From the NCBI GenBank assembly GCA_044892525.1, contig CM097885.1:26228001-26292000 (forward strand): a stretch of 64,000 nucleotides of DNA. The letters are read 5' to 3'. This document shows positions 28,037 through 62,800 of the stretch, in pieces. How positions within the stretch are numbered: position 1 is the stretch's first letter; each line of letters starts with the position of its first letter. The notes below the pieces were generated by a model. The model saw nothing but the letters and a program-made list of their open reading frames with translations, was not told where the DNA came from and searched no databases. This stretch comes from Schmidtea polychroa (Eukaryota). A program made the translations under genes and the position numbers.

Positions 28037-29030
28037 TTGCAAGTAGATGAAGCTACTGATGTTATTAAGGATGCACACGTGATAATATATGTAAGATATG
28101 TTGTTGAAACCGATATTAAAGAAGACATGTTGTTCTGCAAACCTATTGAATTTAATACTACAGCAAAGGAAGTTTTTAAAATCATTGATATTTTTTTAAA
28201 GAAAATGGTATTCTACAGGAGAACTGTGTTGGGCTATGCACAGATGGAGATCCATCCATGGCTGGAAAAAACGCTGGTCTACAGGCTCTAGTTCGAAAGG
28301 TGGCTCCTCGTGCAGTTTGGACACATTGCATGATTCATAGACAAGCACTTGTATCAAAAAATATGAATGAAGATCTCCTCACAGTATTTGAAATTGTTAC
28401 AAGAGTTGTAAATTTTATTAAAAATAGCCCGTTAAGAGCAAGGATTTTTGCAAAATTGTATGATAACATGGGTTCAGAATATAGATCACTTCTATACTAT
28501 TGTGAGGTACGATGGCTTTCACGTGCTAAAGTACTTCAAAGGGTGTTTGAGCTAAAAGATGAAATCGCTACATTTCTAAGTGATAATAATAGAGATGAAG
28601 CACATTTGTTTTTTGATATGAAATTCGTTGTTAAACTTGCGTATTTAGTTGATATTTTTCAAAAACTTAGTATTTTAAACAAATCAATGCAAGGGGCTCA
28701 ATTATATACTTTTACGCAGAAAGACAAGATCACTGCATTTATCAAAAAAATAGAACTGTGGATATTATGTTTAAAAAATAATAACTTTGACATGTTTTTA
28801 ACTTTTAAACTTACCTGTCTCACTGAAGAAATAGAAGTAAAATTTTTATTAACAATCATTTGACAAGTTTACAGAAGCAATTTTCGTTGTACTTTAAGGA
28901 TTTAGACATGTCCAAATATGAATGGATTAGAAATCCATTTATGATTGAGGAATATAATGATTTTAAACTTACGACAGCAGAACAGGAAATGATTATTGAT
29001 TTATCTAGTAATAGCACATTAAAGCAGATT
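28037..29030 (+). pseudogene. hAT (Buster/Charlie, ZBED5/FAM200-like) transposase fragment
   Basis: QVDEATD, YVRY, EDMLFC, CTDG..SMAGK, THCMIHRQAL, CEVRWLSR, LAYLVDIF, WIRNPF; frameshifts; short copy at about 7980-8040. Confidence 0.92.
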
Positions 29031-29168
29031 CTTATTTTATGTCCAAATGAACATCCAAAATATATGAACTGGTTAGTACAAGAAATTTACCCATGGATTA
29101 AAGAAAACGGTGACTGGAAATATATAAAAAAAATTAGAGTTACATTTTTGGTTAAGAATTATGTGTAA
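29030..29168 (+). pseudogene. Bcl-2-like C-terminal (BH2) fragment
   Basis: YMNWLVQEIYPWIKENGDWKYI resembles BH2 and the 40813 exon (PWIEANGGW). Confidence 0.55.
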
Positions 29169-37602: not shown

Positions 37603-37604
37603 TT

Positions 37605-37622
37605 TGGTGCCGCGAACCAGGA
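37605..37622 (+). promoter_or_regulatory. tRNA primer-binding site
   Basis: TGG-starting GC-rich 18-mer two nt after the LTR-ending CA; the priming tRNA was not identified. Confidence 0.65.
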
Positions 37623-37649
37623 CTTTAAAATCTAGAACAAAGGAACATA

Positions 37650-37988
37650 GTGCTGGCCAGGAAAAACAAGAAACTAGAGAACGAAAGAAGGATGTACGAT
37701 GAGAACATCAAAAACCTGGAAAAAGAAATCGAAAAATGGAAAAACGGCGAAAAAGCAGAAGAATTGGAAAAACAAATGGAAGTAAGAGACGATCTAACAA
37801 GGTATCTGACATACTTGTTAGACGAGGAATTAAATGTCTCAAGGGCATTAAGGGACGAAGTCCACGAGCTGAGGGCTCAACTTCCCAGATATTACCTACC
37901 ATACGACCCCTCGCTATACATCTGGAGTCACTGGTCGAAAGCGATGAAGGATACGGGGGTCAGGAGGAAACTTTTGTGTAAAAACTAA
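37650..37988 (+). CDS. Coiled-coil ORF downstream of the PBS (LTR element leader or gag-region ORF)
   Basis: 112-aa K/E-rich heptad-like ORF, GTG start. Confidence 0.45.
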   Translation: MLARKNKKLENERRMYDENIKNLEKEIEKWKNGEKAEELEKQMEVRDDLTRYLTYLLDEELNVSRALRDEVHELRAQLPRYYLPYDPSLYIWSHWSKAMKDTGVRRKLLCKN

Positions 37989-38291
37989 TAAAAAGACAAA
38001 AAATATAAAATCGGGAGCTATATCCCCCCAAAAAAAATTAGGAGTACTTTAAAAGTAGTAAAGGGACTGTAACTCTGCGTATATAGAATAACATATAAAT
38101 GTATAAGTATAAGTCGCATTGTAACGCAACTATTAATTGTAAATATTGTAGAAACGGAAAAATGAAAATCGAATAAATAACAACAACAACGGTGACCGAA
38201 ATAGAAGAAGGAGAAATTGAAGTGGAAGAAGTAGAAAGAAAGAGAACAATCAAGGAAGAGTTACAAGAGGAGAAACAGGAAAACGAACGAT

Positions 38292-38690
38292 AGTAGATGG
38301 ATTGGGCACCGCTGGCACAGGGCACCCCTAGCACAGTACCCCCCCCCCCCCCCCCGCCGTAAAATTAAAAAAAAATTTTCAAGGTCAAATTTTAAACAAA
38401 GACATATGACTCATCCGATGACTCATCAAATTTCTCAAGGTCATTTAAACAAAGACCATGACTCATCCTATGACTCATCAAGGCCATTTTCAAGGTCATA
38501 TGACTCATAACATGACTCATCAAGGACATTTTTAAGGTCATATATTTATTATTATTTTTAAAAAATATTATTTTTTTATTTTTAATTTGTTCAAAGTTCC
38601 CGCCAACGAAAATTATTCATCGATAGCTCATTTTAAAGCTCAATCCAAGACCTTTCGAATGAGCCATATATCCTGTTATTAAGATTATTA
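38292..38690 (+). repeat. Left TIR of the Maverick
   Basis: Blocks reverse-complementary to 48570-48719 and 47990-48070, e.g. caaattttaaacaaagacatatgactcatc and caatccaagacctttcgaatgag. Confidence 0.85.
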
Positions 38691-38700
38691 TTTCTAAAGA

Positions 38701-38851
<151 letters not shown>

Positions 38852-39159
38852 CTATATACTCCGAGTCTATCCGACAAATTATTTTGTCCCCCTATGGGTA
38901 ATGCACACAAGGGTACTGCTCACGCTCAACAACTCACAAGGGTATTATTAAACAAATCAACATTGTATTATTATTATTATTATTATTAATATTATTATTA
39001 TTATTAATCTATATACTCCGAGTCTTTCCGACAAAATATTTTGTCCCCCTATGGGTACTGCTCACGCTCAACAACTCGCAAATCAACAAATCAACAAAAC
39101 ATACATTTATTTAAACAATAAAATAATGTTAAATTAACAAAGGTAAACTAAATATTGAT

Positions 39160-39813
39160 TTACATGTATATAGTATGATATTCATTAATCAGTGTTGAAC
39201 AGGCTTGACACTTGCGAACATTCTTCTCGTGACACTTAGAACAAACAATTACGTGACCACATGGTAAATACAAAACCGAAACTCGATTTTCTTTACAAAT
39301 TGAACAAGTTAAATACCTTTTCTTAACATCGTTCAGTTTTTTCGTTAGCTTATTTTCAATCAAATCAGCTTTTGCTATCCATTCATAAATCAATCCACTA
39401 TATCCCGGTTTCAACCTTAAATACATACAACTCCAAAAGTATTCATTCAGTGAATCGTTGTTTACCGATATTTTTTCTAAGTACATTAAATAACTAGATA
39501 ACTTTAAAATGGATTTATCATAATTAAATAAATCAATCAAATATTCAATAGAGGAATGTTTGAAAATCTTTAAAATATTTATGATTTGCTTATCACTGTA
39601 AGTATCATGATTATTTATAAAATCTTCAACTGTGTTGTTAAAAAATTTCAATGAACGCTTATCTTCGGAATAGGTTGGACTTAATTTTTCCTTATTTCTA
39701 GTAGGACTTCCTTGCTATAAATGACACATATATAAAAAATATTGACAAAATAATAAAGTTACCAAATGTGTTTTATGATTTACACATTCAACAGTTTTAT
39801 TTGTAGAAATCAT
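39160..39813 (-). CDS. Spliced C3HC4 RING-finger protein (IAP/MDM2-type C-terminal RING), 201 aa
   Basis: Exon 39813-39763, 48-nt GT-AG intron, exon 39714-39160 in frame; CSIC...LYLPCGHVIVCSKC...CQAC; no BIR domain seen. Confidence 0.85.
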
Positions 39814-39986
39814 TAGTAATAAATTTCTTAATAACTAAATTACTTTTGTTTTTACATTTATAAAAATTGAGATAGCCAATCAAATTAGAGTTTTCAAAAT
39901 GTAGAAATTGTAACCATGGTTGAACCTTCAAATGTATAACAATAATAATAATAAGCATGACTAGTACCCTTGCAACCTGTTGAAAG

Positions 39987-40290
<304 letters not shown>

Positions 40291-40610
40291 GTCATTATTA
40301 TAGTCATTGATATAGCTGCATGCTCACTGCAGACTATATAAAAATCACCATTAAATACTTATAAAAATTATAATAAAACAACAAACCAAATACTTGAAAA
40401 AATTAAAAAAAAAATCTGGTTACAAATTTTTATTCAATATGTATATATATATAAATACAAGTTTTATTCAATATACAAGTTATAATACAAGTTATAAATA
40501 CAAGTTTTTTATACAAGTTTTTGTAAATCAAAATAAAAGTTTCTATACAATTTTCACAATTTTCAGTTGTCCTATTTAAATTTTAATCCTATTTAATTTT
40601 CATCTCCCAG

Positions 40611-40992
40611 TTTCGAAAGTTATACTTCAATAGAATATTTCACTGTCTTTTCGATGAAGACATGAAATGGACAAGGATAATTATAGGATTCACCTACATG
40701 AAGATAATCATTGCAAAAGGTCAACATGACTCAGAACATTATTATCAGTGGTCTTTAGAAGTAAGATTTCTTTTATAATCTACATATATATTTTAATAAT
40801 ATTCATTTCTAGATAATCAAGTCCAAGTTTACCCCATGGATAGAAGCCAATGGCGGATGGGGTGTATTAAATAAACTGGCCTGCGATGTTAAAGAAACTG
40901 ACGAAATCAAAAGAAAAATGAAAAACTATATAAAACGTACAACTGGAGTTGTTATAATGTATATTTTCTGTAGATATATGAATAAAAATTAA
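40611..40992 (+). CDS. Spliced Bcl-2-family-like protein (5' exon not located)
   Basis: Exon 40611-40760 with BH1-like LFDEDMKWTRIIIGFTY; 52-nt GT-AG intron; exon 40813-40992 with BH2-like PWIEANGGW and a hydrophobic tail; open after splicing. Confidence 0.75.
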
Positions 40993-41261
40993 TGTTATTG
41001 TTTTTAATAGTATATTTAAATGAAAATAATTCAATTTTAAAATTTATTACCACAATCGCAGTCGTCATCTCCACATTTCATTATATTTTCAACGACATGA
41101 TCTACACAACCTTTATCTGTAGTCATTATTACCACTTTAAAACTATATTATAAGTTTGTTTATAGGATTTTCTTTGTTAAATTTGCATGTCATTTGCATT
41201 AATGTTGCAATTAATAAAGAGAAAAAAACAAATATGACTAATACATTTATTAAATATAATA

Positions 41262-41681
41262 TTAAAATAGTTGTGAAAGTCTAGCAGACATAATTTTCCA
41301 AATTGGAGAATACACATCATTATTATCAACTTTATATCCTTGGATTGCTATTGTTATATACCAATTTTCGTTTTCTTTGAAGCTGATTTCATCAAAGGAA
41401 TTATAAAATCTTGCATATCGGTTGTTGAAAAATGCATGTTGATTACAAGATAGATTCGTATTCAACCGTTTGAAAACCTCATCAATAGATTTAACATCTA
41501 ACATTGAAAGCGTGCCGGATAAGAATTGAAATTTAGTCGGAATTAGCTTGATCGGTGACACCAATTTCATATTGATTTCTTCTTTTAAAAAATACATTTT
41601 ATAGTTGTGGAACATTTGAACAGGTTGTACAAGTTCTGGAACAACTTTTGACTTTTCAGTGCTTGAAATTTTCTTTGTCAT
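41262..41681 (-). CDS. Maverick accessory ORF, 139 aa (possible OB-fold/SSB-like)
   Basis: Intact ATG ORF with an upstream CCAAT box; beta-rich C-terminus ITIAIQGYKV...PIWKI; function speculative. Confidence 0.5.
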   Translation of the reverse strand: MTKKISSTEKSKVVPELVQPVQMFHNYKMYFLKEEINMKLVSPIKLIPTKFQFLSGTLSMLDVKSIDEVFKRLNTNLSCNQHAFFNNRYARFYNSFDEISFKENENWYITIAIQGYKVDNNDVYSPIWKIMSARLSQLF

Positions 41682-41877
41682 CGTGAATTATGATTAAAAT
41701 GAAATGGTACAGAGTTTTTATACCTATGACTATTGTTTATCATCCAATCAGATTGCTACATGTCTTTGTTTAAATTGCATGTCATTTGCATGTCATTTGC
41801 ATTAATGCTTTTATTATAAATATTGTTTTTTATTATTATTTCTAATATTACTATTTCTATTATTATTTCTATTTCTA

Positions 41878-42284
41878 TTATTTCGATTTACAAAAACAAA
41901 TCAACATAAAATTTATTTTGATACAATCTGACTCGAGTGATGATTTCTCAGTCTTCACCAAACACCATTCAACATATTGTTGATAACGGAAATTGCAACA
42001 GCTACATCCGAAAATGCAAGGAATCTCTGGTTTCATTTCTTTCATCCCCTTCCTATCTTGATATCCCATAGAAAGGTGTTTATTATATCGAATATCCAGA
42101 TTCGAGTTTGGTTGTATACCAAATCCGGAATGATAGCTAGATCTCTATCTTGTAGAATTTCATATAATTCTGGATAATAGAAACATAATCTTTGCAGGAT
42201 AATTGATTGATATTCATCTGTAAAAAATATATATTAATGTAATAATAAAAATTTGAAATTACCATAATTTGCATGCTCTTTCAT
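41878..42284 (-). pseudogene. Spliced CxFxCxCC protein (homologue of 62453-62800)
   Basis: MKEHANY|DEYQSIILQ...then frameshift...CIFGCSCCN; directly downstream of the TBP-like gene. Confidence 0.55.
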
Positions 42285-42438
42285 TGAGGTGATTGCGGAA
42301 CTTTGTATGTTTTACATTTTTGTTGAATAAATGACAACTAAACCGAAAACATCTTTTTATAAATAATCATCAGCCAATTAGATTTCGACCAATCAGAATC
42401 ATGCATTTCAATTGCATTGAATTTGCAATGATAAATAA

Positions 42439-42903
42439 TTAATTAAGTGATAATAAAAAATCTAAAAATTCATTTCCTTCAATTATTGATTTAATTTCAG
42501 ATATGATATTATCAACTATACATTTGTAATCAATATTTTTTATTCCAAGAATTACTATCTTACCGCTAGCGAATATATTTACACACATAGGGTTATATTT
42601 TATATATCTCAAAGCTGGAAATAATTCTGGTTCATAAAAGCATGGTATTAATTTAGCCAATTCATTTAAATTACAAGAAAAACCTATATCAGAAGTTACG
42701 GTTATCGATTGTATTTCTAAATCATAAACATTATATTCACTAGCTTTGATTATTTCCTTACACCCCATAACTCTACATTTACCAGTTTTGAAATATATTA
42801 TTGGATATTTTTTACTTCTATTGATGAGTTGTTGTGGTTTCCCCATTGGAAATACCATTTTTGATACATCAGCTTTTGCCCTGTAATTTATATTTGAAAG
42901 CAT
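42439..42903 (-). CDS. TATA-binding protein (TBP)-like protein, copy 1
   Basis: SNIN, YFKTGKCRVMGCK, EIQSITVTSD, YEPELFPAL and IFASGKIVILGIK match TBP core repeats; intact and intronless. Confidence 0.88.
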   Translation of the reverse strand: MLSNINYRAKADVSKMVFPMGKPQQLINRSKKYPIIYFKTGKCRVMGCKEIIKASEYNVYDLEIQSITVTSDIGFSCNLNELAKLIPCFYEPELFPALRYIKYNPMCVNIFASGKIVILGIKNIDYKCIVDNIISEIKSIIEGNEFLDFLLSLN

Positions 42904-42960: not shown

Positions 42961-43014
<54 letters not shown>

Positions 43015-43017
<3 letters not shown>

Positions 43018-46000
43018 GGTGGGTCGAATGTTAATAAATTTTGAGTTCAAGAAAGGAAACATGGTTAAAAAGTTGTATTTTGGTATAGAAAAATCGAATC
43101 AAACCATTTTACTTAGATTTATAGACATTTACTGCTCCCAACTTTTCTCCGAAAATGCAGTTCAACATAAGTGTGAAAACAATGTAATTTGGCTAGTGTC
43201 GGAATGTGTTTTGCGCCTTTGTTCATATTTAGATGTAGCTTTCTTAAGAGCTTATAAGTATATTATTTACTCTCTTGGGCTGAGATAGTATATTCTGTGT
43301 CCTCATCCCACATTGAAATATATCCTGACAACGTCAGTGATTAGGAAGGGCCAAATTTGAATTATCCTTTTCAAAGACAAAAATCAACTTTCGAAATTAT
43401 TTTTTATTAAAAACATCCAGCCAAAAGTTTAGAAATGTATTAGCGAGGGCATAAAAAGAAGTCACATGAAATCAGCTTTGCTTTGCACCTTGGGCAATTC
43501 CTTCCTTGATTTTTTACACAGTAGTACCATACCATGTCTGGACTTGTGACCAAACACTTTGCAACTGGCAGAAGAAACATCTTTGATGGCTCTTTCAACG
43601 GCTTGAGAATGACAGGGAAATTGTTCTAATGTAATTTTCTTATTCATCTTCAATTCATGATCCAATATATGAGATAAAAGAGGGGGAGGCGTCAAATTAC
43701 ATTTTGTCCAGTCAATCATGTCAACATATGATGTAGCAGACGACTGAAGAAAGACAGTATTCTTGTCCATAGTGCGAATCACTTCGGAAGGGAGAAAATT
43801 TTGTCTTGCAGTTATGATTTTTTCTGTTGTAAGCTTTCTGATTTCTTCATCATCATCACCAACAGCAGCTAGGAGTATATTTTCTGGATGTGAGAAGTAA
43901 TTGTTGTTCTGAATGACAGGAAAGATGATTTCTTGGTCTGATGGATCCAAATCCTGCAGAAGTTGGAGCATATAAAAAATATTTCTTGCACCATCTTGGC
44001 ATGACGAGTGAGTCTTTATATAAAACCATGACGGTCCATAGAAATTGACAATAAATTTCACTATTCGCATGAGAGGTTCAGATGGAGCAGTTTCGGACAT
44101 ATATAGTCGCAGAATTCTATTAGCTTTCGTTAGCCAGCGACTGTGATTCAAATTTCCTGGTTGTGCCATTTGTAGAAAAGGGACATCCTTGTTGTTGTGG
44201 TACCCTTTCTGGACTGCCAAGCATACTCTGAGGAAATACAATTGATCAGTGTTCAATTCTTTCTTGACATTTTCACTAATATCTACGACCTTTCCAGGAA
44301 GGGACATAAAGGCTACTACGGGCTTGTCTTTTGGATCAAAATCAAGAACGCTTCCTATTTCACCACATGACGTTTTTGGACCTTTTGTTTCTCCACCATC
44401 GACGACTGAAAAATACTTCCTGAATGGCAATTCATTTGCATGCAACAAGCATATCAGCCATTTTAGAGGTCGCCCTAGGCTTTTTTCGAGTCTTCTGATT
44501 ATTCCATTATTTTTTCCGGTGTTTGTATTGGTTCCATCGCACACAATTGCTTGAAGGGTCAGTGAGGACTGCGTGCTAACGATGATTGACATGATTTCTT
44601 TGCCAATATCCACAGCTTTACTACTTTGAGGTACAACATGATCGATATATGTATCCCCTGGAAAGGCGACAATCACATAATGCTCCTCTTTTAGGATCCT
44701 TCTATGAAGTAAGGTGGAATCTTGTTTCCCGTCGAAACCGAGGCAAATCAAGTTTTTCGCTTCTGCTGAATGCTGTTCAATTTCTCTCTCCCTCCAGTAC
44801 TTTCTCTGACGCCGTAATTTTGCGGGATCGATGATTGTTTGAGAGGATAACAGTTCCATATCTTTCAGAAAAGCGTTTACTAGCAAACACGTGTCTCTGT
44901 TGCTCACACCACATCTGTCAACAGCTTTACTTAATTCAGGATAATGTCTTCTATTTTGAAATTCATCACATTCTTCTACGCTTGACTCTGAGCTTTCTGT
45001 TGAATTGTCTAACTTATCTTTACTTTCATCACTAGCGGCTTCACTCTCCGTGTCACTTCTTGAGGTCGGATGTGTTCATTATTTCATTTTTCATTTGTTT
45101 TCCTTTTCCAGTAGGGCTGCTTTTCGTTTGATTTCTCTTCAATTTTGAGGTTTCCTGTCTGTCCGTATTTCCGATTTTCATGTTTCTGGTAGTTTGTTGG
45201 TCAATCCAGAACTCCCACTCTAAGGTAGGAATTTTCAAGGCCAATCGGCATGTACACTGACTTCTTCCACGAGCACCATCATTAAAATATTTGCAGCAAC
45301 ATATGTCAAACAATTTGGAAAACGAGCTTAACTTATCTTGAAATTTGGCAGATGACCTCTTGCATTCTGGATACTTCTCTAATTCACGCACTTTTGATAT
45401 TAGTCGCTTGACACGAACCACAATACTACTGAACTCAACAGTTGGGATACTTGCCTTCATATAAATTTCCTTCACCTTATTTGCGAGAAGAGTTGCTTGT
45501 TCGTTAAAGCCAGTATGAAATTGCGTACATTTCTCATTGTAACAGTAATCACGAAACACATCTTCACAAGTAGGTAATTGGTTTCTGGGTAGTTCACAAG
45601 TTTGACCAAACAGACAATGACGTGATTTACTTCTTGTTTTGCGAAATTGCTTATTTCTCTGTCCCTTCATAACTGCTCTTCTGTACTCAGCTCTGGCAAA
45701 ATAAAAGTGAATCATCAAGTTAACTTTTTTAATTAGGTCCAGCAAACACTTGACATCCAATCGAAACAAATTAAATTATCTGAGTTTAGACTGACTAGTT
45801 GTATCCATGTGGATTATGTGTTGACTTTAGTGTGTGTGTTAGTATTGTTCAGAAGAAATTGTCTTTGTGAGTGCTTGTGTGAAGGTGCTTCCGTGAATTA
45901 ACCTCTCTATACATGCACGAGTTAGCTCGGACTTGTGAATAGAGCATGTCAAAAATGGTCTTTCTGCAAGCGTGTGACTGCTTGCAGGATGAATTTACAA

Positions 46001-46169
46001 TGGCACGTGTGCGAGCATTTTTACTGGGATAGTACTAATACATACAAACAAAAGTTGGGACCTGTAGACCCTTTTAAACAGCAGTCTTTTGCAGGGATAT
46101 TTCATTTTCTAGCATAAGCACAACTTTTTAGGCATGTTTGGAGAAAAAAAAAATTTTCAACCCACCCTA
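43015..46169 (-). mobile_element. hATm-type DNA transposon, near full length
   Basis: TIR TAGGGTGGGTCGAA / TTCAACCCACCCTA (1 mismatch); inserted in a (TA)n tract giving an ATATATAT flank on both sides. Confidence 0.9.
43462..45769 (-). pseudogene. hATm transposase (apparently one frameshift near 45060-45110)
   Basis: LFDICCCK, DRCGVSNR, GFDGKQD, CDGTNTNTG, CLLHANELPFR, HSRWLT, HPEN, PCHSQAVER. Confidence 0.88.
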
Positions 46170-46250
46170 ATATATATATATAGTTATTTTAAAAAGGAGT
46201 TCATTTAAATTATCAATATAAACAATAATTATATAGTTTAAATTTAAAAA

Positions 46251-46560
46251 ATGGAATTACGAAATGATGCAGTATACCAAATCGTTGGTCCGAGTGGTAG
46301 CGGGAAAACATTATTTGTTTGTAAATTACTAAAATCTAATTTGTTCAAAACAAAATTCAACAATATTTATTGACATAGAGGCGCCGATGAAGAACATGGA
46401 TTGACGCAATCAAGTTTCTGTCAGTTGAAAAACATGAAAATAGTAAAGGGTTTTGATAAAAACCGGTCAAGTCGTTTGAAGAGAGATGATGTCATCATTA
46501 TCGATGATTTGTATCAAGAAGCCAATAAAGAAAAGGATTTTAATAATTTATTCACAAAAA
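46251..46560 (+). pseudogene. Maverick packaging ATPase (A32/FtsK-like), truncated, copy 1
   Basis: MELRNDAVYQIVGPSGSGKT (Walker A), IIIDD (Walker B), NLFTK; TGA at 46371. Confidence 0.88.
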
Positions 46561-47192
46561 TTTTACTGAATGATACCTTAAATGATTTTAATATACCTAT
46601 TTCTAAAGTAAATCGACAGCTCAGACCAACAACATGTATGGATGACCACAAATTGTTAATTTATTTCCAGTGTCACGTCTCTCAAAAATACCGTGAGTGT
46701 TTTAACAAAACAGAGCTCAAAGAAACTTTCCAGATAACAACTCCCCTGAATGTTTTGAACAAAAATGATTGAAATTGAGAAAAAATGATTAGATGGCGAT
46801 TAACTTCTGGCCACAACCCTAAATATATAACATGAAAATTAAGATTTTAAATATTGAATTCGTTGTTTTCAGCCTGGAAATATTAACAGAATATTTTTTA
46901 ATTCAAAGAATCTTCATTATAAATTTTTAAATTAAATGAAGGATATATTAAATTTACAATATTATATAAATTATACTATATTTATTAATAAATTTAGAAT
47001 ACATAAATTATAATATTATATAATATTATATAAAATTATACTATATTTTATTGTTTAAATAACTAAATTGTTTAAATATTTTTAAATAACTTTTCTTTCG
47101 TTTTAGTATCCATAAAGTAAGTAAATAAAGAAATTACTAAAATATTTTAATTGTTTTCCTTATTAATGAAGAAAATACAACAACAATCCAAA

Positions 47193-47736: not shown

Positions 47737-47768
47737 GTAAGCCTTTATTTATTTTTATATTTCTTAAA

Positions 47769-47801
<33 letters not shown>

Positions 47802-47932
47802 TATAATAATAATAATAATATTAATAATAATAATAATAATACTATATCTTGTAGTCTGCAGTCAGCATGCAGCTACATATCTCTTTTATTATGATTTCCC
47901 CAATAAAGCTACATGACAATAATAATAATAAT

Positions 47933-47978
<46 letters not shown>

Positions 47979-47989
47979 TTAATAATAAT

Positions 47990-48719
47990 GATATATGTCT
48001 CATTCGAAAGGTCTTGGATTGGGCTTCAAATTAAGATATCGATGAATAATTGTCGTTGACGGGAACTCTATAAATTTAAATTTTTAAATATGACCTTGAA
48101 AAAATAAATGACCTTGAAAAAATAAATGACCTTGGAAAAATAAATGACCTTGAAAAAATAAATGACCTTGAAAAAATAAATGACCTTGAAAAAATAAATG
48201 ACCTTGAAAAAATAAATGACCTTGAAAAATAATATTTTGAAAAAATAAATGACCTTGAAAATGGTCTCGGGAAAACGTTAATAACTTTGCCAATGATAAT
48301 GATGATGATACCTTCAATAGCTCATTTGAAAGGTCTTGCACTAAGCTTTAAAAAAAGCTATCGATATTTGGTAAAATGTTAATAACTTTGTCAATATTAA
48401 TGATGATTATACTTTCAATAGCTCATTCGAAAGGTCTTGGATTGGGCTTCAAATTAAAATAAATTCGGATAATGGGAACGCTAACTTTTGGGCAAACGAA
48501 AACCAGGAGCCCGCTAGAACACTTAATAATATTTTTGAAAATAATAATAATATTTTAAAAAATAATAATATGACCTTGATGAGTCATATGTCTTTGTTTA
48601 AAATTTGACATTGAAAAAAAAAGACCTTGACCTTTTATTTAAAAAAAAATTTTTTTCCCGGGGGGGGGGTATATGTGTTCCAGCGGGCTCCTGTTCTAGC
48701 GGGCTCCCTTCCATCTACT
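47990..48719 (-). repeat. Right TIR of the Maverick, including an 18-bp tandem repeat (48090-48260)
   Basis: Inverted match to 38292-38690; about 9 copies of aaaaaataaatgaccttg. Confidence 0.85.
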
Positions 48720-49746
48720 TCAGCCAGTAAATTAATACGATGGTCGATTGCCCTCCAAGAATACGACTTTGAGATTAAATATCGGACAGGTAAAGCTAAC
48801 GCGAATGCAGATGCAATGTCAAGAATCTCAGAAAATAATAGTGAAGGGACACCTGAAAAATTGGAAGGCACTATATTCGCTGCAATCAAAGCTGTTAATG
48901 ATATGTCGGAACTTCAAAATGATCAGGAAAACGATAGTGAATTAAAACAATTTATGGAACAAGCGGTCAAAATAAGAAAAGAACAAGACTGGAAACGACT
49001 TACAGATGTAAACAGCAAATATGTAATTCATAATTGAATACTTAAATGTTGGAAAAATGGGGAAGCATTAATTATTATAGCAGCCAAGCACAGAGATGTA
49101 TTACTGATGCAGTATCATGATGGAGCGTTGGGAGGTCATTTGTCAACGCGCGAGACGCTATCAAGATTAAAATTGAAATACTTTTGGCCAACAATGGAAC
49201 AAGACGTGAAAAATTGGTGTAACAGTTGCAGTAAATCAAAGTACAGAAGAGACCCCTTTTTATTTGATGTATTTAAGGAAAAATAATATGCCGATTGATC
49301 TCAAATTCCAACCACCAATTTCACAATATATGGAGATACCCGATTATAAAGCATTGATGCAAGAAAGAATGCAGTCAGTATGGACTAAAGCCGGTTTGAC
49401 AATAAAGCACAACCAAGAGAAATATAAAGAAACATACGATAAAAAAACACATGCGCATGGCATAAAGATTGGAGATCTAGTATATCTGAACAGACCGGAA
49501 CCTCTCAAAGGTTTATCGCCTAAATTGCAAAGACCATTTAAAGGACCCTACAAAGTGTGCGACACCACCGAAACCAATTTGAAGTTATTACCATTCAGGA
49601 GTAAAAAGGCTAACCCGATGATTGTGCATGCAAATCGATGTAAACTAGTGCCAGAGGAAGATGAATCTAGATACCCCTTAAGATCCAAGCAGAATAAAGT
49701 AACGGGTCAACACCAGTCAGCTACATCAATAAGATATTATATGTAG
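48720..49746 (+). pseudogene. Ty3/Gypsy pol 3' fragment (RNase H end, integrase HHCC, GPY/F; integrase core deleted)
   Basis: RWSIALQEYDFEIKYRTGKANANADAMSR; YHD...GGH...YFWP...CNSC; TPFYL; KLQRPFKGPYKV. Confidence 0.93.
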
Positions 49747-49751
49747 CAATA

Positions 49752-50855
49752 ATGCTGATGTTAGTAACAGTCGCGAACGGCAAAAAGATTGACTTACCAT
49801 ATGCGGTAAGCGAAATCCGAGGAATGGAGAAAATACATATATATTCCAATCTAACAAATATAGTATGGAGCTGTAAATGCGAGATCGCAGACCAAATAGA
49901 AATTATTAATTTACTAGACAATACGGCACCAGTGGTAGAACTGAATTATGATAAAGATATATTTGCGGTACGAAACTTAAAGCCAAATTTCAAATACCAA
50001 TGGCTGTTGAGACAGAACATGTCAAAGTGGTACACGCAAATTCCGATAGAAGTGCACACAAAAGAGATGCGAAACTTGATCGAAATAGAACCAGAGATAA
50101 ATGGAATCAATATATATTGGAAGCCGGTGGACTTGGTGAAAGTGCGAATCACATTTCAAGGGTTAAATGTCGACACCCTTAACTCGTGAAAATCATTTAT
50201 CCGCTACGAGAAATTGAAAATGAATCAAAATTATTCAGTTAATGCAAACTACTACGAGAACATATGCCTCGAAAATGGAACGGTAGTGAGAAACCAATGG
50301 TCACGATTTAAGAGTGAGACCCAGTCTATCTATCTCAGAGACGAGTCAAATCGTATAACCCTGAGTGTTGGAAATGGACCGGTAACGATATATAGAAAAT
50401 CAGGAAATGATGAAAGAGTTGTTATTATCTACAAACAGAAAACCTTGACTATATTAGATGCCGGTAATCATTTTTTTACACTTTACACTTCTGATTTAGA
50501 GACGGCATGGGAATTAACAGTTAAATACCAGCGATGGATAACTGATCCAGGCAGATGGCAAACAGTTTTCGTGGAAGTCAAGACAATCAATGAATCGAAA
50601 CGAAAATCAGATACAACCACATCACCTTTCCAATTACCGACCCAAGAGACGACAAAACCTAACTCAAATAAACTAATGATGATAAATTCGGATTTGACAG
50701 TCAACTATTGTGAATATCTCATTTACATTTTAATAACAGGTTTTCTCATCTTATCAATAACATTCATAATCATCACCATCTTGATATGTGTAAAAGAGAG
50801 ACAACTAACTATCCTTCAACCACCATCATATTCATATTATGAGACAAGACTATAA
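49752..50855 (+). pseudogene. env-position type I membrane protein with FN3-like motifs (one in-frame TGA at 50187)
   Basis: The two ORFs share a reading frame; hydrophobic N-terminus; VRNLKPNFKY, INIYWKP, LKMNQNYSV; TM segment YLIYILITGFLILSITFIIITILICV. Confidence 0.7.
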
Positions 50856-55919: not shown

Positions 55920-56825
55920 TGTTGAGGTCTGTAAATTAAAATTAAAAATTTAAATAAAATTTAGGATAATAATTCAAATGGAAAGTAAGCGAGGAAAAAA
56001 GGCAAATAAAAGCGGGATCGTGTACAGAATCAATAGTAAAGTGTGATGGAAACAGTATTAGAAAATGCAAAAAGCAATTACGAAATGCGAAAAACACTCA
56101 AACGTATGAAAACAGAAAACGTTAATTAATTGGCTAATGGAAAACCCGAGCTAATGGGAAACCCGAGCCAATGGAGAACCCGAGAGATAAAGGAAACCCG
56201 AGCTGGGTAAACAAGAAGAAAGGCAAACAAAAGGAAGATTTGGGCCCATTAGCTTGACACAATGATTAATGGGAAAAGAGTAAGGAGAAGATAGCGCGCG
56301 TAGGAAGACCGGTAGGGCCATTAATTATCTGGATTCGTTGGACCATTATGGATGACAGCCGAAGCAAACACGTAGGAGAAAATGTCAAACAAAAGATTGG
56401 CTCGGCAATAACCATTTGTCATCCTGATTTCGAGGAGTATATAAGCAAAGGGAAAATCAGAGAAAATCGGCATTCTGCCTCAGCTAGGGTTCGAAGAATT
56501 AGACTGTAGAGGAAGTGGTAAACGAATTAGGGAAGTAGGGAAAAAAAGAAATAGAATTAAGAATACGGAAAGGCGAAAAGGGATCAAACCAAACAGAAAC
56601 CGAGGAAAACGAGAGTCAAGAGAACTAAAGGATCAAAAGGTGAATATTGTTTGTTTGCAAAGCATCAACGCCGAGCGGAGAATCGTATAAAACTTTGATT
56701 GGTAATTGTAGCGTGATAATAAATTGTGAACCTGTTGTTTCAATATACGTTGGGTCGTTCATTGTTTTGATTTAAAGAACACAGGAGTCAGAGAGAACCG
56801 ACTTGAAATAATCCAAAACCCAACA
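55920..56825 (+). mobile_element. 3' LTR (906 bp) of a Ty3/Gypsy element
   Basis: TGTTG...CAACA; upstream PPT; TATATAA at about 56438; AATAAA at about 56718. Confidence 0.88.
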
Positions 56826-57253
56826 GTCCTAAAAAATTAAATTACAGTAAATTATGGTTCTAAAAAATTAAATTACAGTAAATTATGGCTCAAATTTTAA
56901 AATTAAGTAATCAATGGTAAAGAATTTTAAATAAGTAAATTAAAGTGATAATTTTTAAATAAAGTAATCAATGGTAAAAATTTTAAAATAAGTAAATTAA
57001 AGTAATAATTTTTATATAAAGTAATCAATGGTAAAAATTTTAAAATAAGTAAATTAAAGTAAGATTTTAAAATTTAATTACAAAATAATAGAAGGTGTTT
57101 GAGAACTGAAATTTTTTAATGAAAATTTTTATGAATAATTTTCAATGGTAATTGTTATGAAATAATTTTTTAAGTTAATTTTTAATGGAAATTTTTATGA
57201 AATATTTTTCAATGATAATTTTAGATGGAAATTTTTAAGATAATTTTTAATGA

Positions 57254-57302
<49 letters not shown>

Positions 57303-57551
57303 TATCGACCAAATACATAAAAATTGAACTAGACACATAAAAATTTACCAAACAAATAACAAATGTAAAGATATAAAATTTATTCATCCAATATTTGCTT
57401 GTAATAAGCTCTTCTTAATTCTGCTAGTAAAATATGAACAACTTCTTTCATCTTATATTCTTGGCAGCATCTACATCTAAACGGACATGATAATTTCATT
57501 GGATCCATACATACTTCACAATCGTCTATGCATTTAAATCTTGATTCTTGT
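56156..57551. repeat. Left arm of a long inverted duplication
   Basis: Reverse complement of 62629-64000; by eye differs only in (AAT)n length. Confidence 0.95.
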
Positions 57552-57664
57552 TTTTGAAAAAGAAATTCAAATTACTTCTACTCGTACTGTTTTGGTATAA
57601 TATAAACCAAATATAGAAAATCAATTAATCAAATATGAAGTAAGAATTAATTTAAATTATTAAT

Positions 57665-58249
57665 TTAAATTTTCGCACAAGTTAAACTAAGTGTAGGATT
57701 TGATCTTGTTAATTTAATTTGAACACTAACACCTGGTAGTAAATATTTAGGTTGATCAAAGAAATCAAATTGAAGTGGGGAACATAAAGAAAAGGATTTT
57801 GATTTTTCAATCCATGTTTTTCTCGTAAGATCATTGTTAGTATACCCCATTCCACCTAAAGAAGTTCGTTTAGTATTTCCGTCATAATTTATAAGTGTTT
57901 CAATTAATGCTTTGTGGGCAAATCGATCATTTGATCCTTCAACTTTGATTGAATTAAAAATTAATTCAACATCTTAAAAAAGGGTTTGGAAGAAAAAATA
58001 TTTTGGAATTACTTCTGATTCGCCTAAATTCTCACCTAAATTATTAACAACTTTCAATTGAATATATAACAAAGTATCATTCAAATCTAAATATTCAGTC
58101 TGCGATCCGTTTATGTAAAATTGAATCGAAGAAGAACCAGCATATGTAATAGAATTTCTTGGGTATATATCTTGAAATGCTCCATGTTCAATCACTGCTT
58201 GGGGAGAAGGTCTATCAAAAAGACATAATTCTGATTAAGCACTAATCAT
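57665..58249 (-). pseudogene. Maverick major capsid protein (PY/hexon), N-terminal fragment
   Basis: SELCLFDRP.PQ..IE...IQFYING...YLDLNDTLL...TLF...ALIETLINY...KYLLPGV; stops; truncated. Confidence 0.88.
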
Positions 58250-58644
58250 TTTTCAAAGATGGTACCATATCCTTTCATTCTTTTGTTTATATGTTTCTTC
58301 ATAATTTTTCGGCGTTTAAGTATTCCGCCTTTTTGTTCTTTATCATTTTTAAATACATCGGATACTTTATTAATTACTTCTGGTAAATGTTGCATCACAG
58401 CTGGTAATGATTCTTTAATTTCAGAAATTGCATTTGATTTTAAAGCAGGCAAGATATTTGCATTGTTATTTATTACGTCATTAACTGTTTTCATACCAAA
58501 ATTTCCTATTCGTCTAAGAATTGGGAGTGCAAATCTACCTATTGTCTTCAACCAATCGGTTCCATATTGTTTACCAACAAAATATGGTAAATCACCACCC
58601 GATTGGTTACTACTATAAAAATGTATTAAGTCAGGATTAGTCAT
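58246..58644 (-). CDS. Maverick PW-like virion core/membrane-active protein
   Basis: QSGG...FVGKQYG...IGRFALPIL, basic C-terminus; located between penton and hexon. Confidence 0.7.
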   Translation of the reverse strand: MTNPDLIHFYSSNQSGGDLPYFVGKQYGTDWLKTIGRFALPILRRIGNFGMKTVNDVINNNANILPALKSNAISEIKESLPAVMQHLPEVINKVSDVFKNDKEQKGGILKRRKIMKKHINKRMKGYGTIFEK

Positions 58645-59653
58645 TTATTTTACGAAAATGTAATGTCAAGTATGTTTTATCTTCTTTTCCAAAAATATAT
58701 TTTCCACTATCATCTCGTATATTGATTTCTATATTGTTTATATATGAAGACGATACAGGTAAGTACATTGGATTCTTTTCAATTATTTGTACTAAATCAT
58801 CTTTTTTATGTTTTTCCACCCAAATACATTTCAAAAGAGGGACCAATGTATCACCAACAATAATTGGTTCGATAATATTTGTATAGATCATCAATTGTTG
58901 ATTGCGTTGTAATACTTCAGGTTCTTTAAAACCAATAATAAATTTGTCAGTATACGTTTCTTCTAATAATCCTAAACTATTAGGTAAAAATTTACTAAAT
59001 TGAACTTTACTTACATCATCATCCATTAAAATTTTAACGATTTTTCCTTTTTGAATATCAACAGATTTAAATGGACGAGGATAAAAGGTTGATAGTTGAT
59101 CATTTATTTGTGAAAGATCTGTAATGATATTTTCTTCGAATGTATCAGTAAACTCAACATCGTAATAATATTGTATAGTTAATCGTATTGTATCAAACTT
59201 TATTTTTCGATTATTTGGAGGAATAGTGATTTTGTTCATTGTTTCTTTAAAATTTATTTCTTTTTCTGAAAATCCCAATTTTTGTGCTTCTTTAATACAA
59301 TCGAATTCTACTTTAAAAGGAAAATATTTACAATTAATGTTCAATGTATTTCCATCAATATATATTAAATAAAATGGAGAGTCGTGACTGATTGTATATT
59401 CATTTTTTTCTTGGTTAAAGTAAAAGTATTCATAACTTGTATGTAATACACTTTTACTATATTTGACATTTGAATTGTTGTAAAAAGGAAAATAATTATA
59501 CACAAAGGTAAAGTCCATGAGAGCTACTTCCCATTCACCACCCAAGTAAATTGGATTTTGAAATTCGACATTAAATTTACCTGCTTCATTATTTGGATGA
59601 GTCTGAGGACAACTATTAGAAGGTAAATTCACATAAAAATCTTTTTTAATCAT
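58637..59653 (-). CDS. Maverick minor capsid protein (PX/penton), copy 1
   Basis: FYVNLPSNS...PNN...GEWEVAL...IYTNIIEP..VGD..VPLL...YLPV...IEINIRD...LTLHFRK. Confidence 0.9.
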   Translation of the reverse strand: MIKKDFYVNLPSNSCPQTHPNNEAGKFNVEFQNPIYLGGEWEVALMDFTFVYNYFPFYNNSNVKYSKSVLHTSYEYFYFNQEKNEYTISHDSPFYLIYIDGNTLNINCKYFPFKVEFDCIKEAQKLGFSEKEINFKETMNKITIPPNNRKIKFDTIRLTIQYYYDVEFTDTFEENIITDLSQINDQLSTFYPRPFKSVDIQKGKIVKILMDDDVSKVQFSKFLPNSLGLLEETYTDKFIIGFKEPEVLQRNQQLMIYTNIIEPIIVGDTLVPLLKCIWVEKHKKDDLVQIIEKNPMYLPVSSSYINNIEINIRDDSGKYIFGKEDKTYLTLHFRKIND

Positions 59654-60668
59654 TTATTTTACGAAAATGTAATGTCAAGTGTGTTTTTGTATCTCTACTA
59701 ACTTTTATTAATTTTCCACTATCATCTCGTATATTGATTTCAATGTTGTTTATAGAAGAATTAGAAATTGGTAGATACATTGGATTCTTCATTTCTAATT
59801 GCACAATTTCTCCTTGTTCATATTTCTTTATCCAAATAGATTTCAATAACGGGACTCTTACATCTCCAACAGTCAATGGTTCGATAATATTTGAGTAAAT
59901 AAACATTTGTTGATGATGATTAAATAATTTTGGAATTTTTGTTCCAATAATTTCTTTCTCTGTAAATGTTTGTTTCTTTAATCCCAATGTTTTTGTTAAA
60001 TTTTTATCAAAGAATATTGATGAAATGTTATCAGCAAGACTTATTTTAACAAATTCATTATTTTGTATTTTTAAATCTTTAAAGGGAGATGAATTAATTG
60101 TCATTAACTGACCATGTATTTCAGATAAAGTATTGATGTATAATTCATCTTCGAAATAATGTTCAAATTTTGTTTTTTCAACAACGCTTATAATTATACC
60201 AAATTGATCAATTGTTTAATCTTCTGTAAATTTTGGTAATTTAATTCGAAAATGATCACTATCACTAATAACCGATACTGATTTTAATCCAAATTTGATA
60301 GCATGCTCAAAATCTGGAAACGTTATTTTAAATGGAACATGTGGACAAACAACAACCAAATTCTCATATCTTTCAATGAACAGTGCTTCAGGAGTATTTT
60401 TAGGATTTATTACTTCAAAGGTTCGATTTGAAATATTTATTCTAAAATATTTAATTTCTTCATCCATCTTTACTTTTTCATATTGTATCAATGAATTACT
60501 GTAATAGGGAAAAGTATTATACACAAAGGTAAAGTTCATGAGAGCTACTTCCTATTCACCATCCAAGTAAATAGGATTTTGAAATTCGACATTAAATTTA
60601 CTAGCTTCATTATCAGGGAAAATAAGAGGACAACTATTAGAAGGTAAAATAATATAAAAATCTTTCAT
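59646..60668 (-). pseudogene. Maverick minor capsid protein, copy 2
   Basis: Same N- and C-terminal motifs (MKDFYIILPSNS, GE*EVAL, LTLHFRKIND); stops. Confidence 0.88.
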
Positions 60669-60673
60669 AATAT

Positions 60674-61535
60674 TTATTTAATCAATTGATTTTCGGATAT
60701 CCAAGATGGAGTTTCATATCCATGCCATTTAACATAGTATTGTTTATATTTACCATCTTTTTTGGTTTTTAAAATCTTTTGAATTCTAAATATTGTAGGA
60801 GCAGGAATTACTTGGAGTTCTTGTTCATAGAATTTACCACTGATTGGTTTGTTTTCATGATCAACTATCACATACATGACAGGATTCTGTTTTGTATCGA
60901 TTTTAAAAATTTGATATACTTCATCACTCCAATTATTATCAAAGTTTTTGATGAATGGTGAAGAATTGATTTTACTAATTCTTACATGATCACCAACTTT
61001 GTATTTCGGTTTATTGATTTTTTCTAACTTTGTTTGATTTTTAGTAAAATCTGCAGGTGTTTGTCCTTTTAATCCTCTGTGTGGTGAATGATTGTAACTG
61101 AAAATAATTTTTGGCAAAACATTTATCCAAGTTTTATTACCTTGATATACAAAATATTTTTTCAAACGTTCTCTCAAAGTTCGATTAAATCGTTCTACAT
61201 GAGTAGCTTTTAACTGAGAAAATACTGAGTAGTGGTTTATTCCTTTGATAACCTCTTTAACTTTGCTGTTATAAAATTCTTTACCTAAATCATATATTTA
61301 AAAATTAATTAATTAAATTTAATTACCTAAATCCGTTTGTAAATTAATAGATTTACCATCTGCAAACATTTCTTTTATCGCATCAGCCATTTCATTTGCA
61401 GATTTAGTTTTTGTAGGAACAGCACGAGCATATCTATTAAAAACGTCTATACAAGTCAGAATATATTTGTACCCCTTGTTAATTTTTGAATAAGGTATCA
61501 TTTCCATCAAATCCATTTGCCATACATAAAATAAT
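60674..61535 (-). pseudogene. Maverick retroviral-like DDE integrase with C-terminal chromodomain; 42-nt intron; 5' deleted
   Basis: WQMDL, CIDVF, QTDL|GKEFYN, VERFNRTLRE, YNHSPH, YYVKWHGY..PSWI; intron 61285-61326. Confidence 0.92.
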
Positions 61536-61853
61536 CCGCAATGTCTACTGATTTTTGTAAATAAATTATTAAAATCTTTTTCTTTATTTGCTTCCTGGTA
61601 CAGATCATCGATAATAATAACATCACCTTAATCTAGATGACCAATTTTTATCAAATCCTTTAATTATTGTCATTTTTAATTTACAGAAACTGTTTTGAGT
61701 CAATCCATGTTCTTCATCTGCACCTCGATGCCAATATATTTTATTAAATTTAGATTTAAACATGTTTGATTGTAATAAATTACATACAAATAAAGTTTTC
61801 CCGCTTCCACTAGGTCCTACAATTTGATATACTGCGTCATTTCTTAATTCCAT
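61536..61853 (-). pseudogene. Maverick packaging ATPase, truncated, copy 2
   Basis: GPSGSGKT; frameshift before IIIDD; FTKISRH then joined directly to integrase sequence by deletion. Confidence 0.88.
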
Positions 61854-61903
61854 TTTTTAATTAAATTATTTTATTTAATTTGTTTATAATTACAATAATT
61901 AGA

Positions 61904-62389: not shown

Positions 62390-62452
62390 TTAAATTAATT
62401 TAATTAATTGTGTTTAAATTAACTGAATATCTACAATAACAAAAATTCAAAA

Positions 62453-62800
62453 ATGGATGACGATAAGCAGGCTTACATATTCCAGACTATATTAACAAAG
62501 ATGGAAGAATTGTTCCCGAATATAAAGAATAGACTTTCGTATTGTGCTCCGGAATTATTAGCTTATAGAATCAAGCAATTAACGGGGATCAATATAGAAG
62601 AACTTCTACGAAGACATTACGAGTCTGTACAAGAATCAAGATTTAAATGCATAGACGATTGTGAAGTATGTATGGATCCAATGAAATTATCATGTCCGTT
62701 TAGATGTAGATGCTGCCAAGAATATAAGATGAAAGAAGTTGTTCATATTTTACTAGCAGAATTAAGAAGAGCTTATTACAAGCAAATATTGGATGAATAA
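62453..62800 (+). CDS. Cys-rich protein (CxxC and CxFxCxCC), 115 aa
   Basis: Intact ORF with CIDDCEVC...CPFRCRCC directly after the TBP-like gene. Confidence 0.7.
   Translation: MDDDKQAYIFQTILTKMEELFPNIKNRLSYCAPELLAYRIKQLTGINIEELLRRHYESVQESRFKCIDDCEVCMDPMKLSCPFRCRCCQEYKMKEVVHILLAELRRAYYKQILDE

What the first reader, a model, noticed from the sequence alone, without database searches (positions are those of the whole stretch)
40611..40992. Intron-containing Bcl-2-like gene inside the Maverick, invisible in the ORF track
Seen: removing a 52-nt GT-AG intron gives an open frame with BH1-like LFDEDMKWTRII, BH2-like PWIEANGGW and a C-terminal hydrophobic tail. Known: adenovirus E1B-19K and pox/herpes vBcl-2 proteins block apoptosis; BH1 is normally NWGR, so KWTR is divergent. 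Inference: an apoptosis modulator carried by an endogenous Polinton-like virus.
Basis: partly seen in the sequence, partly recalled or inferred. Interest (0 to 1): 0.8.

Follow-up and report, generated by a model that had tools for sequence, protein, structure and literature searches.

The report
Spliced Bcl-2-like cargo of Maverick element
A virus-like jumping element with many copies in this animal genome carries a small two-exon gene resembling the Bcl-2 cell-death regulators, which likely helps keep the host cell alive; the copy here has lost its front end and is likely dead, and Bcl-2 cargo is already reported for such elements.

Summary
The 52-nt GT-AG intron (40761-40812) keeps two exons in frame. 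Exactly this joint appears in contigs of two RNA-like runs (one study) and in neither DNA-like run. Each exon alone has a Bcl-2 protein as its best, though weak, PDB hit. A sister copy's first exon matches Pfam Bcl-2 at E 8e-4. Across copies, 16 of 22 listed core variants are synonymous.

Corrections: there is no 5' exon to find. Other copies continue exon 1 about 50 codons upstream, so this copy is cut at about 40616 and has no start codon before BH1. The hydrophobic tail is only about 11 residues. The fold search was inconclusive.

The gene lies between degenerate inverted repeats, with a TBP-like gene and a packaging-ATPase fragment: a deleted Maverick/adintovirus. BH1 keeps Arg but has Thr for Gly, and the intron is not at the conserved BH2 site.

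Bcl2 in adintoviruses is published (PMC8502044), and this scan noted such genes many times on other DNA of this genome. A survival function is inferred, not tested.

The parts
40617..40760 (+). Surviving 3' part of exon 1 of the Bcl-2-like gene (predicted helices 4-6, BH1-like motif with Thr in place of Gly)
   Evidence: 94% and 85% identical to P0001 and P0002; 40611-40760 has BAK as its only PDB hit, E 0.85; 12 of 17 listed variants synonymous
40761..40812 (+). 52-nt GT-AG intron, phase 0
   Evidence: Sequence; joint 40760/40813 in X7 and X21, absent from X2 and X12; all 4 listed indels lie in it
40813..40992 (+). Exon 2: BH2-like motif, basic linker, short hydrophobic tail, stop
   Evidence: Pfam Bcl-2 positions 86-100, E 0.34; PDB BCL-2 6v4m E 0.17, Bcl-xL E 2.7; hydropathy
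40611..40617 (.). Junction at which this copy is cut; the 5' part of the gene is missing here
   Evidence: Depth 0 at 40560-40610 in 4 of 4 runs; loose ends before 40617, 40623 and 40635 match the N-terminal halves of P0001/P0002; that half has no tblastn hit below E 0.7 in the window
40415..40616 (-). Likely 3' end of another, minus-strand transcript left on the far side of the junction
   Evidence: Poly-T loose end before 40415 in one X21 contig; minus-strand AATAAA at 40429-40434
39163..39813 (-). RING-finger gene with a predicted 48-nt 5' intron (39762-39715)
   Evidence: Pfam zf-C3HC4_3 E 1.6e-9; intron in phase with an upstream ATG; splicing not tested
41262..41681 (-). 139-aa ORF of unknown function, next to the Bcl-2-like gene
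   Evidence: One relative, P0003, 88%; model pLDDT 33, uninformative
41881..42284 (-). Broken Cys-rich gene with a predicted 45-nt 5' intron (42262-42218)
   Evidence: Phase check; weak likeness (E 0.02) to ORF 62453-62797, which has the same place beside the TBP-like gene of the sister element
42439..42903 (-). TBP-like gene
   Evidence: Pfam TBP E 7.2e-15; 48% identical to the TBP-like gene at 61904-62386
43014..46170 (-). Inserted DNA transposon with short terminal inverted repeats in a TA run
   Evidence: Matching ends printed; two long ORFs without a Pfam hit
46251..46561 (+). Broken packaging-ATPase gene, head to head with the TBP-like gene
   Evidence: Walker A; Pox_A32 best of 28 Pfam families, E 0.0017; 79% nucleotide identity to 61551-61896
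38338..38858 (+). Left arm of a degenerate inverted repeat that brackets the cassette (a further piece at 40194-40336)
   Evidence: 65-97% identical to 47756-48617 in 6 pieces; 83% piece
47756..48672 (-). Right arm of the inverted repeat
   Evidence: no matching target-site duplication seen by eye

Best explanation
A multi-copy Maverick/adintovirus-type element carries a two-exon Bcl-2-family gene that is spliced at this intron in RNA-like runs and whose protein likely keeps the host cell alive while the element multiplies; the copy in this window is cut at its 5' end and is likely dead. Shown: the exons, the intron, the joint, the many copies, the excess of synonymous change and the cut. Inferred: the family's protein is about 160 residues (101 codons of exon 1 in a sister copy, 59 of exon 2), has the compact Bcl-2 helix order, is held on a mitochondrial or ER membrane by a short basic-hydrophobic tail, and binds host BH3-bearing death proteins through the kept BH1 Arg. 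The Thr in place of the BH1 Gly would narrow or shift which partners fit.
For: Splicing: joint skipping exactly 52 nt, GT..AG, in X7 (1 contig, shorter side 30 nt) and X21 (1 contig, 39 nt); 0 in X2 (316 contigs laid) and X12 (364 laid). Family: P0001 Pfam Bcl-2 E 8e-4, profile 7-67; P0002 E 4.4e-3; exon B profile 86-100, so the pieces are colinear; 26 of 30 PDB profile hits are Bcl-2 family, best E 0.033; Atlas top hit 0.93 with 211 of 256 features, and 10 of the 10 best named hits in one family or clan; six helices in Bcl-2 order in the model. Selection: 16 of 22 listed core variants synonymous against 16-20% expected, 0 stops in 40; the listed variants at the BH1 Thr and Arg codons are synonymous. 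Context: TBP-like and A32-like ATPase genes head to head, as in the sister element at 56156-64000 that holds rve integrase and chromodomain pieces; bracketing inverted repeats. Precedent: Bcl2 and IAP homologues in adintoviruses (PMC8502044). The Arg-Asp salt bridge is the hallmark of pro-survival binding (PMC9609553).
Against: No function was tested. All Bcl-2 scores are under the Pfam cut-off (20.4 bits against 31.4), and the window's exon A alone has no Pfam hit. The BH1 Gly is absent; Bcl-2 G145A no longer binds BH3 proteins (PMC6901440) and mutating this Gly abolishes survival activity in Bcl-2 and KSHV Bcl-2 (PMC2836074). The tail averages only 0.47 over 19 residues and 14 of its 18 listed variants are non-synonymous. 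The two RNA-like runs are one study, their RNA status is the tool's guess, the X7 side is one base under the tool's 31-base rule, and the contigs cannot be assigned to a copy. Some X2 contigs have gaps in the exons or delete the intron with exon 2 sequence, so part of the family is decayed. No polymerase, capsid or integrase gene lies within this bracket.
Confidence: 0.62

Rival explanations
1. Same gene and same element, but the Bcl-2 fold is used for something other than blocking apoptosis, such as damping innate signalling or autophagy, as some poxvirus Bcl-2-fold proteins do (recalled).
For: BH1 Gly replaced and kept so by synonymous-only change; for Trichoplax Bcl-2L4 the same loss is read as a sign of another function (PMC8998228); weak tail; Atlas hit 2 includes Poxv_Bcl-2-like on 11% of members.
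Against: BH1 Trp and Arg and the whole BH2 are kept; mouse Boo with Ser at this site has changed selectivity, not a lost family role; vaccinia F1L blocks death without a standard BH1 word.
Confidence: 0.2
2. The protein promotes death: a Bak-like effector or a decoy of host survival proteins that helps release particles or acts as selfish cargo.
For: Most exon-1 PDB hits are BAK; the Gly-less Trichoplax protein clusters with Bak.
Against: The predicted helix 2 of P0001 and P0002 has no Gly-Asp BH3 core (consensus recalled); the BAK hits are weak (E 0.03 or more) and BAK is over-represented in the PDB; A1/Bfl-1 scores alike.
Confidence: 0.07
3. The gene is not Maverick cargo but a host gene piece, or the BCL2-like domain of a Burro-type LTR retroelement, caught in a nest of repeats.
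For: The cassette sits inside LTR-retroelement pieces (pol-like 48615-49743); planarian Burro elements carry BIR, RING and BCL2-like domains (PMC6431247); no single contig spans the cassette.
Against: In Burro the domain is part of a 4,873-aa polyprotein; here it has its own start (P0001, P0002), intron and stop. The gene lies inside the inverted repeats with the TBP-like and ATPase genes; single contigs run from exon 2 to 41060. Hundreds of variant contigs fit a repeat, not a single-copy host gene.
Confidence: 0.06
4. This copy is itself an active gene with a separate 5' exon spliced onto the AG at 40609-40610.
For: An AG preceded by a pyrimidine-rich stretch lies just before 40611; the spliced X21 contig differs from this copy at 1 of 111 bases.
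Against: No contig covers 40560-40610 in 4 of 4 runs and no joint onto 40611 is listed; sister copies have coding DNA there; the upstream DNA looks like the 3' end of an opposite-strand transcript.
Confidence: 0.05

Closest known systems
Bcl2 homologues of adintoviruses (animal Polintons/Mavericks), Starrett et al. 2021, PMC8502044 (passages, section 7 and supplement hits read)
   Same: Bcl-2-like accessory gene in an animal Maverick-type element; the text also names IAP homologues, and Bcl2 labels occur three times in Supplementary Fig. S2.
   Different: The main text has no hit for 'splic' and its one 'intron' is about group II maturases, so spliced Bcl2 genes are not described there. I did not see the published Bcl2 sequences (supplement cut when stored), so I cannot say whether they share the Thr or the intron.
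Viral Bcl-2 proteins: adenovirus E1B-19K, EBV BHRF1, KSHV Bcl-2, ASFV A179L, vaccinia F1L (PMC9609553, PMC2836074; passages read)
   Same: Compact Bcl-2 homologue in a DNA virus-like element, BH1 Arg kept; an Atlas cluster with Adeno_E1B_19K on 20% of members scores 0.85 (a lead only).
   Different: BH1 normally keeps the Gly-Arg pair; here only Arg. No sequence relative at E 0.001 or better among 1.84 billion representatives except P0001 itself.
Cellular multi-motif Bcl-2 family (Pfam PF00452; PMC8998228 section 6 read)
   Same: BH1 and BH2 in order, predicted helix pattern, two coding exons, C-terminal hydrophobic end.
   Different: Cellular genes from sponge to mouse have the intron right after the BH2 Gly-Gly-Trp. 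Here it lies 15 codons earlier, and the spliced X21 contig runs through that Trp without a gap.
BCL2-like motif of planarian Burro LTR retroelements (PMC6431247, passages read)
   Same: Mobile element carrying Bcl-2-like and RING-type cargo.
   Different: Retroelement polyprotein domain there; a separate intron-bearing gene in a DNA element here.

Membership tests
Bcl-2 family (PF00452) | Profile score above the Pfam gathering cut-off (31.4 bits) | tested here: inconclusive
   Only single exons were scanned: 20.4 and 18 bits for P0001/P0002, 11.9 for exon B, none for the window's exon A. The whole protein was not scanned.
Bcl-2 family (PF00452) | BH1 and BH2 motifs in order | tested here: met
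   Profile 7-67 then 86-100; alignments to BAK, A1, BCL-2, Bcl-xL
Bcl-2 family (PF00452) | BH1 Gly-Arg pair | tested here: not met
   Arg kept, Gly replaced by Thr in the window, P0001 and P0002. Accepted members without the Gly exist (Trichoplax Bcl-2L4, mouse Boo), so this does not exclude membership.
Bcl-2 family (PF00452) | Helical Bcl-2 fold | tested here: inconclusive
   Exon-1-only model, pLDDT 52, six helices; no Foldseek match at E 0.001 or better; VIA best Z 5.7, deerpox DPV022 at rank 18, Z 4.6, rmsd 4.3, 83 aligned
Bcl-2 family (PF00452) | C-terminal membrane anchor (usual, not universal) | tested here: inconclusive
   11-residue hydrophobic run between basic residues; 19-residue mean 0.47
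Pro-survival viral Bcl-2 | Binds BH3 peptides or Bak/Bax and blocks death | not testable with these tools
   No host partner sequence and no assay available
Pro-apoptotic Bax/Bak type | BH3 motif with Gly-Asp core in helix 2 | tested here: not met
   By inspection of P0001/P0002; consensus recalled; this part is absent from the window's copy
Maverick/Polinton (adintovirus) | Terminal inverted repeats | tested here: met
   Degenerate arms 38376-38858 and 47756-48617
Maverick/Polinton (adintovirus) | A32/FtsK-like packaging ATPase | tested here: met
   Broken gene from 46251; Pox_A32 E 0.0017 on 40 residues, under the cut-off
Maverick/Polinton (adintovirus) | rve integrase with chromodomain | tested here: inconclusive
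   Not within this bracket; present at 60677-61627 in the sister element (rve E 7e-8, chromo E 4e-4) that shares the ATPase and TBP-like genes
Maverick/Polinton (adintovirus) | Protein-primed PolB | tested here: inconclusive
   Not within this bracket; a DNA_pol_B_2 gene lies at 6153-7925, link to this element not shown
Maverick/Polinton (adintovirus) | Major capsid protein and maturation protease | tested here: inconclusive
   None recognised among the 43 ORFs scanned with Pfam or 13 with PHROGs; the copy is deleted and these libraries may miss them
Maverick/Polinton (adintovirus) | Target-site duplication (6 bp, recalled) | tested here: not met
   Flanks of the two ends do not match by eye; this fits a rearranged remnant

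The most novel reading that the evidence does not exclude
The element captured Bcl-2 as a processed, intron-less copy, then gained a new spliceosomal intron of its own (like the short introns predicted in two neighbouring genes) and fixed a Gly-to-Thr change in BH1 under purifying selection. That would give a viral Bcl-2 with a re-cut groove aimed at a different set of host death proteins, and a natural series for studying intron gain in a nuclear DNA virus.
Probability: 0.22. Interest if true: 0.65.

Novelty: new member of a known kind. Interest (0 to 1): 0.4.

Why it matters
It shows that accessory genes of animal Mavericks can be spliced, transcribed and under selection, and so are missed by ORF-based annotation. 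If the protein blocks death, a high-copy resident element supplies an extra apoptosis regulator to its host. The Thr-for-Gly BH1 offers a natural test of how strictly the BH3 groove needs that Gly. The kind of cargo is already published, and this copy is a broken remnant, so the gain is moderate.

Tried and rejected
No host assembly is held, so copy number, full-length elements and host Bcl-2 genes could not be examined.

Searches that found nothing: P0001 in IMG/VR and JGI metagenomes; TBP-like gene in IMG/VR; the 139-aa ORF in JGI metagenomes; exon B against longer proteins, 1 candidate and none at E 10 or better; exon B in the Atlas, no usable hit; the representative search returned only P0001; scan look-ups by sequence returned nothing.

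Fold searches on the low-confidence exon-1 model gave no clear match. The 139-aa ORF model (pLDDT 33) was not searched further. No complex prediction was run, since no host partner sequence was on hand.

Summed contig depth was not used as a copy number.

Rejected: a 5' exon spliced to 40611; the Burro polyprotein reading; a chance motif pair. Literature searches without a paper on a spliced Maverick Bcl-2 gene (listings only); two searches gave the papers used; one search gave two planarian papers that I did not open.

Full report
Observation. The BH1-like and BH2-like words are there. A BH1-like plus BH2-like pair occurs once in the window and in 0 of 200 shuffles (patterns chosen after seeing the sequence). 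The tail is weaker than claimed: an 11-residue hydrophobic run between basic residues, 19-residue mean 0.47.

Splicing. Twenty of 24 listed runs hold part of 40320-42900; none is on record as RNA. I laid five of them. On 40560-41060, a joint from 40760 to 40813 appears in one contig of X7 (shorter side 30 nt) and one of X21 (39 nt), both guessed to be RNA, and in none of 316 contigs of X2 or 364 of X12. X21 also has a poly-T end 14 nt from an AATAAA on the other strand, which supports its being poly(A) RNA. X7 and X21 are two samples of one study, and X7 also holds intron-containing contigs. The joint table for X1 was cut, so X1 says nothing on this.

Family. Each exon alone has a Bcl-2 protein as best PDB hit: BAK, E 0.85, the only hit for exon A; BCL-2 6v4m, E 0.17, first of 3 hits for exon B. 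Two unnamed ENA proteins, P0001 and P0002 (94% and 85% identical to exon A; 2 of 3 candidates), are first exons of other copies read into the intron. They match Pfam Bcl-2 at E 8e-4 and 4.4e-3; exon B matches the end of the same profile at E 0.34. A profile of the three first-exon sequences gives 26 Bcl-2-family rows among 30 PDB hits, best E 0.033. The Atlas puts P0001 next to Bcl-2 clusters (0.93) but gives nothing for exon B. All scores are under the Pfam cut-off. The AlphaFold model of exon 1 has six helices in the expected order but pLDDT 52, and three fold searches were inconclusive. The whole protein was not scanned or folded. I judge membership at about 90%.

Selection. Of 50 variant sites, one search lists the 40 best supported. 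In exon A and exon B up to the BH2 Trp, 16 of 22 are synonymous against 16-20% expected from equal change (binomial p 3e-7 at 0.21; not corrected for transition bias or shared ancestry); none of the 40 makes a stop; in the linker and tail only 4 of 18 are synonymous. All 4 listed indels lie in the intron, but some X2 contigs have exon gaps and two delete across the intron into exon 2. The family has thus been under purifying selection in its core, with decayed copies among it.

This copy is cut. No contig of the four runs covers 40560-40610. Loose ends before 40617-40635 in X1, X2, X7 and X12 match the N-terminal halves of P0001 and P0002, which have about 50 more codons and their own Met in the same exon. 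That half has no match below E 0.7 in the window, and the first in-frame Met here is at 40662, inside BH1. Upstream of the junction lies what looks like the 3' end of an opposite-strand transcript. I infer a deletion that removed the promoter and helices 1-3. The gene has two exons, not three.

Setting. Degenerate inverted repeats (38376-38858 and 47756-48617) bracket a RING gene, the Bcl-2-like gene, a 139-aa orphan, a Cys-rich gene, a TBP-like gene, an inserted DNA transposon and a broken A32-like ATPase. The TBP-like and ATPase genes are head to head, as in a second element at 56156-64000 whose copies are 48% (protein) and 79% (DNA) identical and which holds rve and chromodomain pieces. Polymerase, capsid and integrase are not in this bracket and no target-site duplication is seen, so it is a deleted, rearranged Maverick/adintovirus remnant, nested in LTR-retroelement pieces. 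No contig spans the whole cassette. I did not determine the host; earlier scan notes call it planarian-like, untested here.

Mechanism. Inferred: intact family members make a protein of about 160 residues with the compact Bcl-2 helix bundle and a short tail anchor, which binds host BH3-bearing death proteins and delays cell death during replication. For: the BH1 Arg that makes the hallmark salt bridge (PMC9609553, passages) and BH2 are kept, there is no Gly-Asp BH3 (consensus recalled), and death blockers are known adintovirus cargo. Against: the BH1 Gly is a Thr in all three sequences with only synonymous variants listed at that codon; changing this Gly removes BH3 binding or survival activity in Bcl-2 and KSHV Bcl-2 (PMC6901440, PMC2836074, passages). 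Natural exceptions exist: mouse Boo has Ser there and changed selectivity, Trichoplax Bcl-2L4 has Arg and perhaps another function (PMC8998228, section 6). I give 0.62 to survival factor with altered selectivity, 0.2 to a non-apoptotic use, 0.07 to pro-death, 0.06 to non-Maverick origin and 0.05 to this copy being active through a 5' exon.

Intron position. Cellular Bcl-2 genes from sponge to mouse have an intron right after the BH2 Trp. Here the intron is 15 codons earlier and the spliced X21 contig runs through that Trp. This suggests capture of a processed copy and later intron gain, and two neighbouring genes have predicted short introns. The host's own genes could not be checked, so a host-lineage intron is not excluded.

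Comparison and novelty. Starrett et al. 2021 (PMC8502044; passages, section 7, supplement hits) report Bcl2 and IAP homologues in adintoviruses, with three Bcl2 labels in Fig. S2; the supplement was cut when stored and I did not see those sequences. Buck et al. 2024 (PMC11071296, passages) mention anti-apoptotic homologues and have no hit for 'bcl'. The Burro retroelement domain (PMC6431247, passages) is a different arrangement. Listings name no spliced Maverick Bcl-2 gene; only titles and abstract starts were seen, and subscription papers are not covered. The scan's own notes record spliced Bcl-2-like Maverick genes many times in this genome (95 of 334 notes fit the words); these are unchecked, look-ups by sequence found no match to this copy, and their claim of descent from a host gene was not tested: my searches found no relative beyond P0001 and P0002.

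Verdict. Real, spliced and selected at family level; broken in this window; a new member of a known kind. Interest 0.4.

Noticed in passing
window 29028-29168 (+): A second, different BH2-like fragment fused in frame to the end of a transposase remnant; its best PDB hits are Bcl-xL chains (E 0.32), no Pfam hit. Possibly the 3' end of another Bcl-2-like cargo gene.
   Followed up: partly
window 38850-39985: The RING gene with its upstream region sits between two halves of the TAT microsatellite of the left inverted repeat, as if inserted into it.
   Followed up: partly
window 39762-39715 and 42262-42218 (-): Two more short GT-AG introns (48 and 45 nt) near the 5' ends of neighbouring genes, each in phase with an upstream ATG; not tested against RNA.
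   Followed up: partly
window 56156-64000: A second Maverick remnant with a 98% identical inverted repeat of about 1.4 kb, integrase-chromodomain pieces, an ATPase fused to the integrase by a deletion, a TBP-like gene and a tandem pair of 46%-identical ORFs that look penton-like by eye.
   Followed up: partly
window 40415-40616 (-): Likely polyadenylated end of an unidentified minus-strand transcript.
   Followed up: no
window 40718-40728 and 40881: Recurring loose ends in several runs suggest subfamilies of the Bcl-2-like gene that differ in the loop after helix 5 and in the linker before the tail.
   Followed up: no
window 37604-38330 and 48673-50852: The Maverick remnant is nested in pieces of an LTR retroelement (primer-binding-site-like word, pol-like and env-like ORFs; labels by eye).
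   Followed up: no
window 11380-15779: Near-perfect tandem repeats (164, 211 and 375 nt spacings) inside a non-LTR retroelement ORF; may be an assembly artefact.
   Followed up: no
window 6153-7925 (-): Broken protein-primed family B polymerase gene (DNA_pol_B_2), next to a piece (5484-5923) 74-80% like the inverted repeat of the 56-64 kb element.
   Followed up: no
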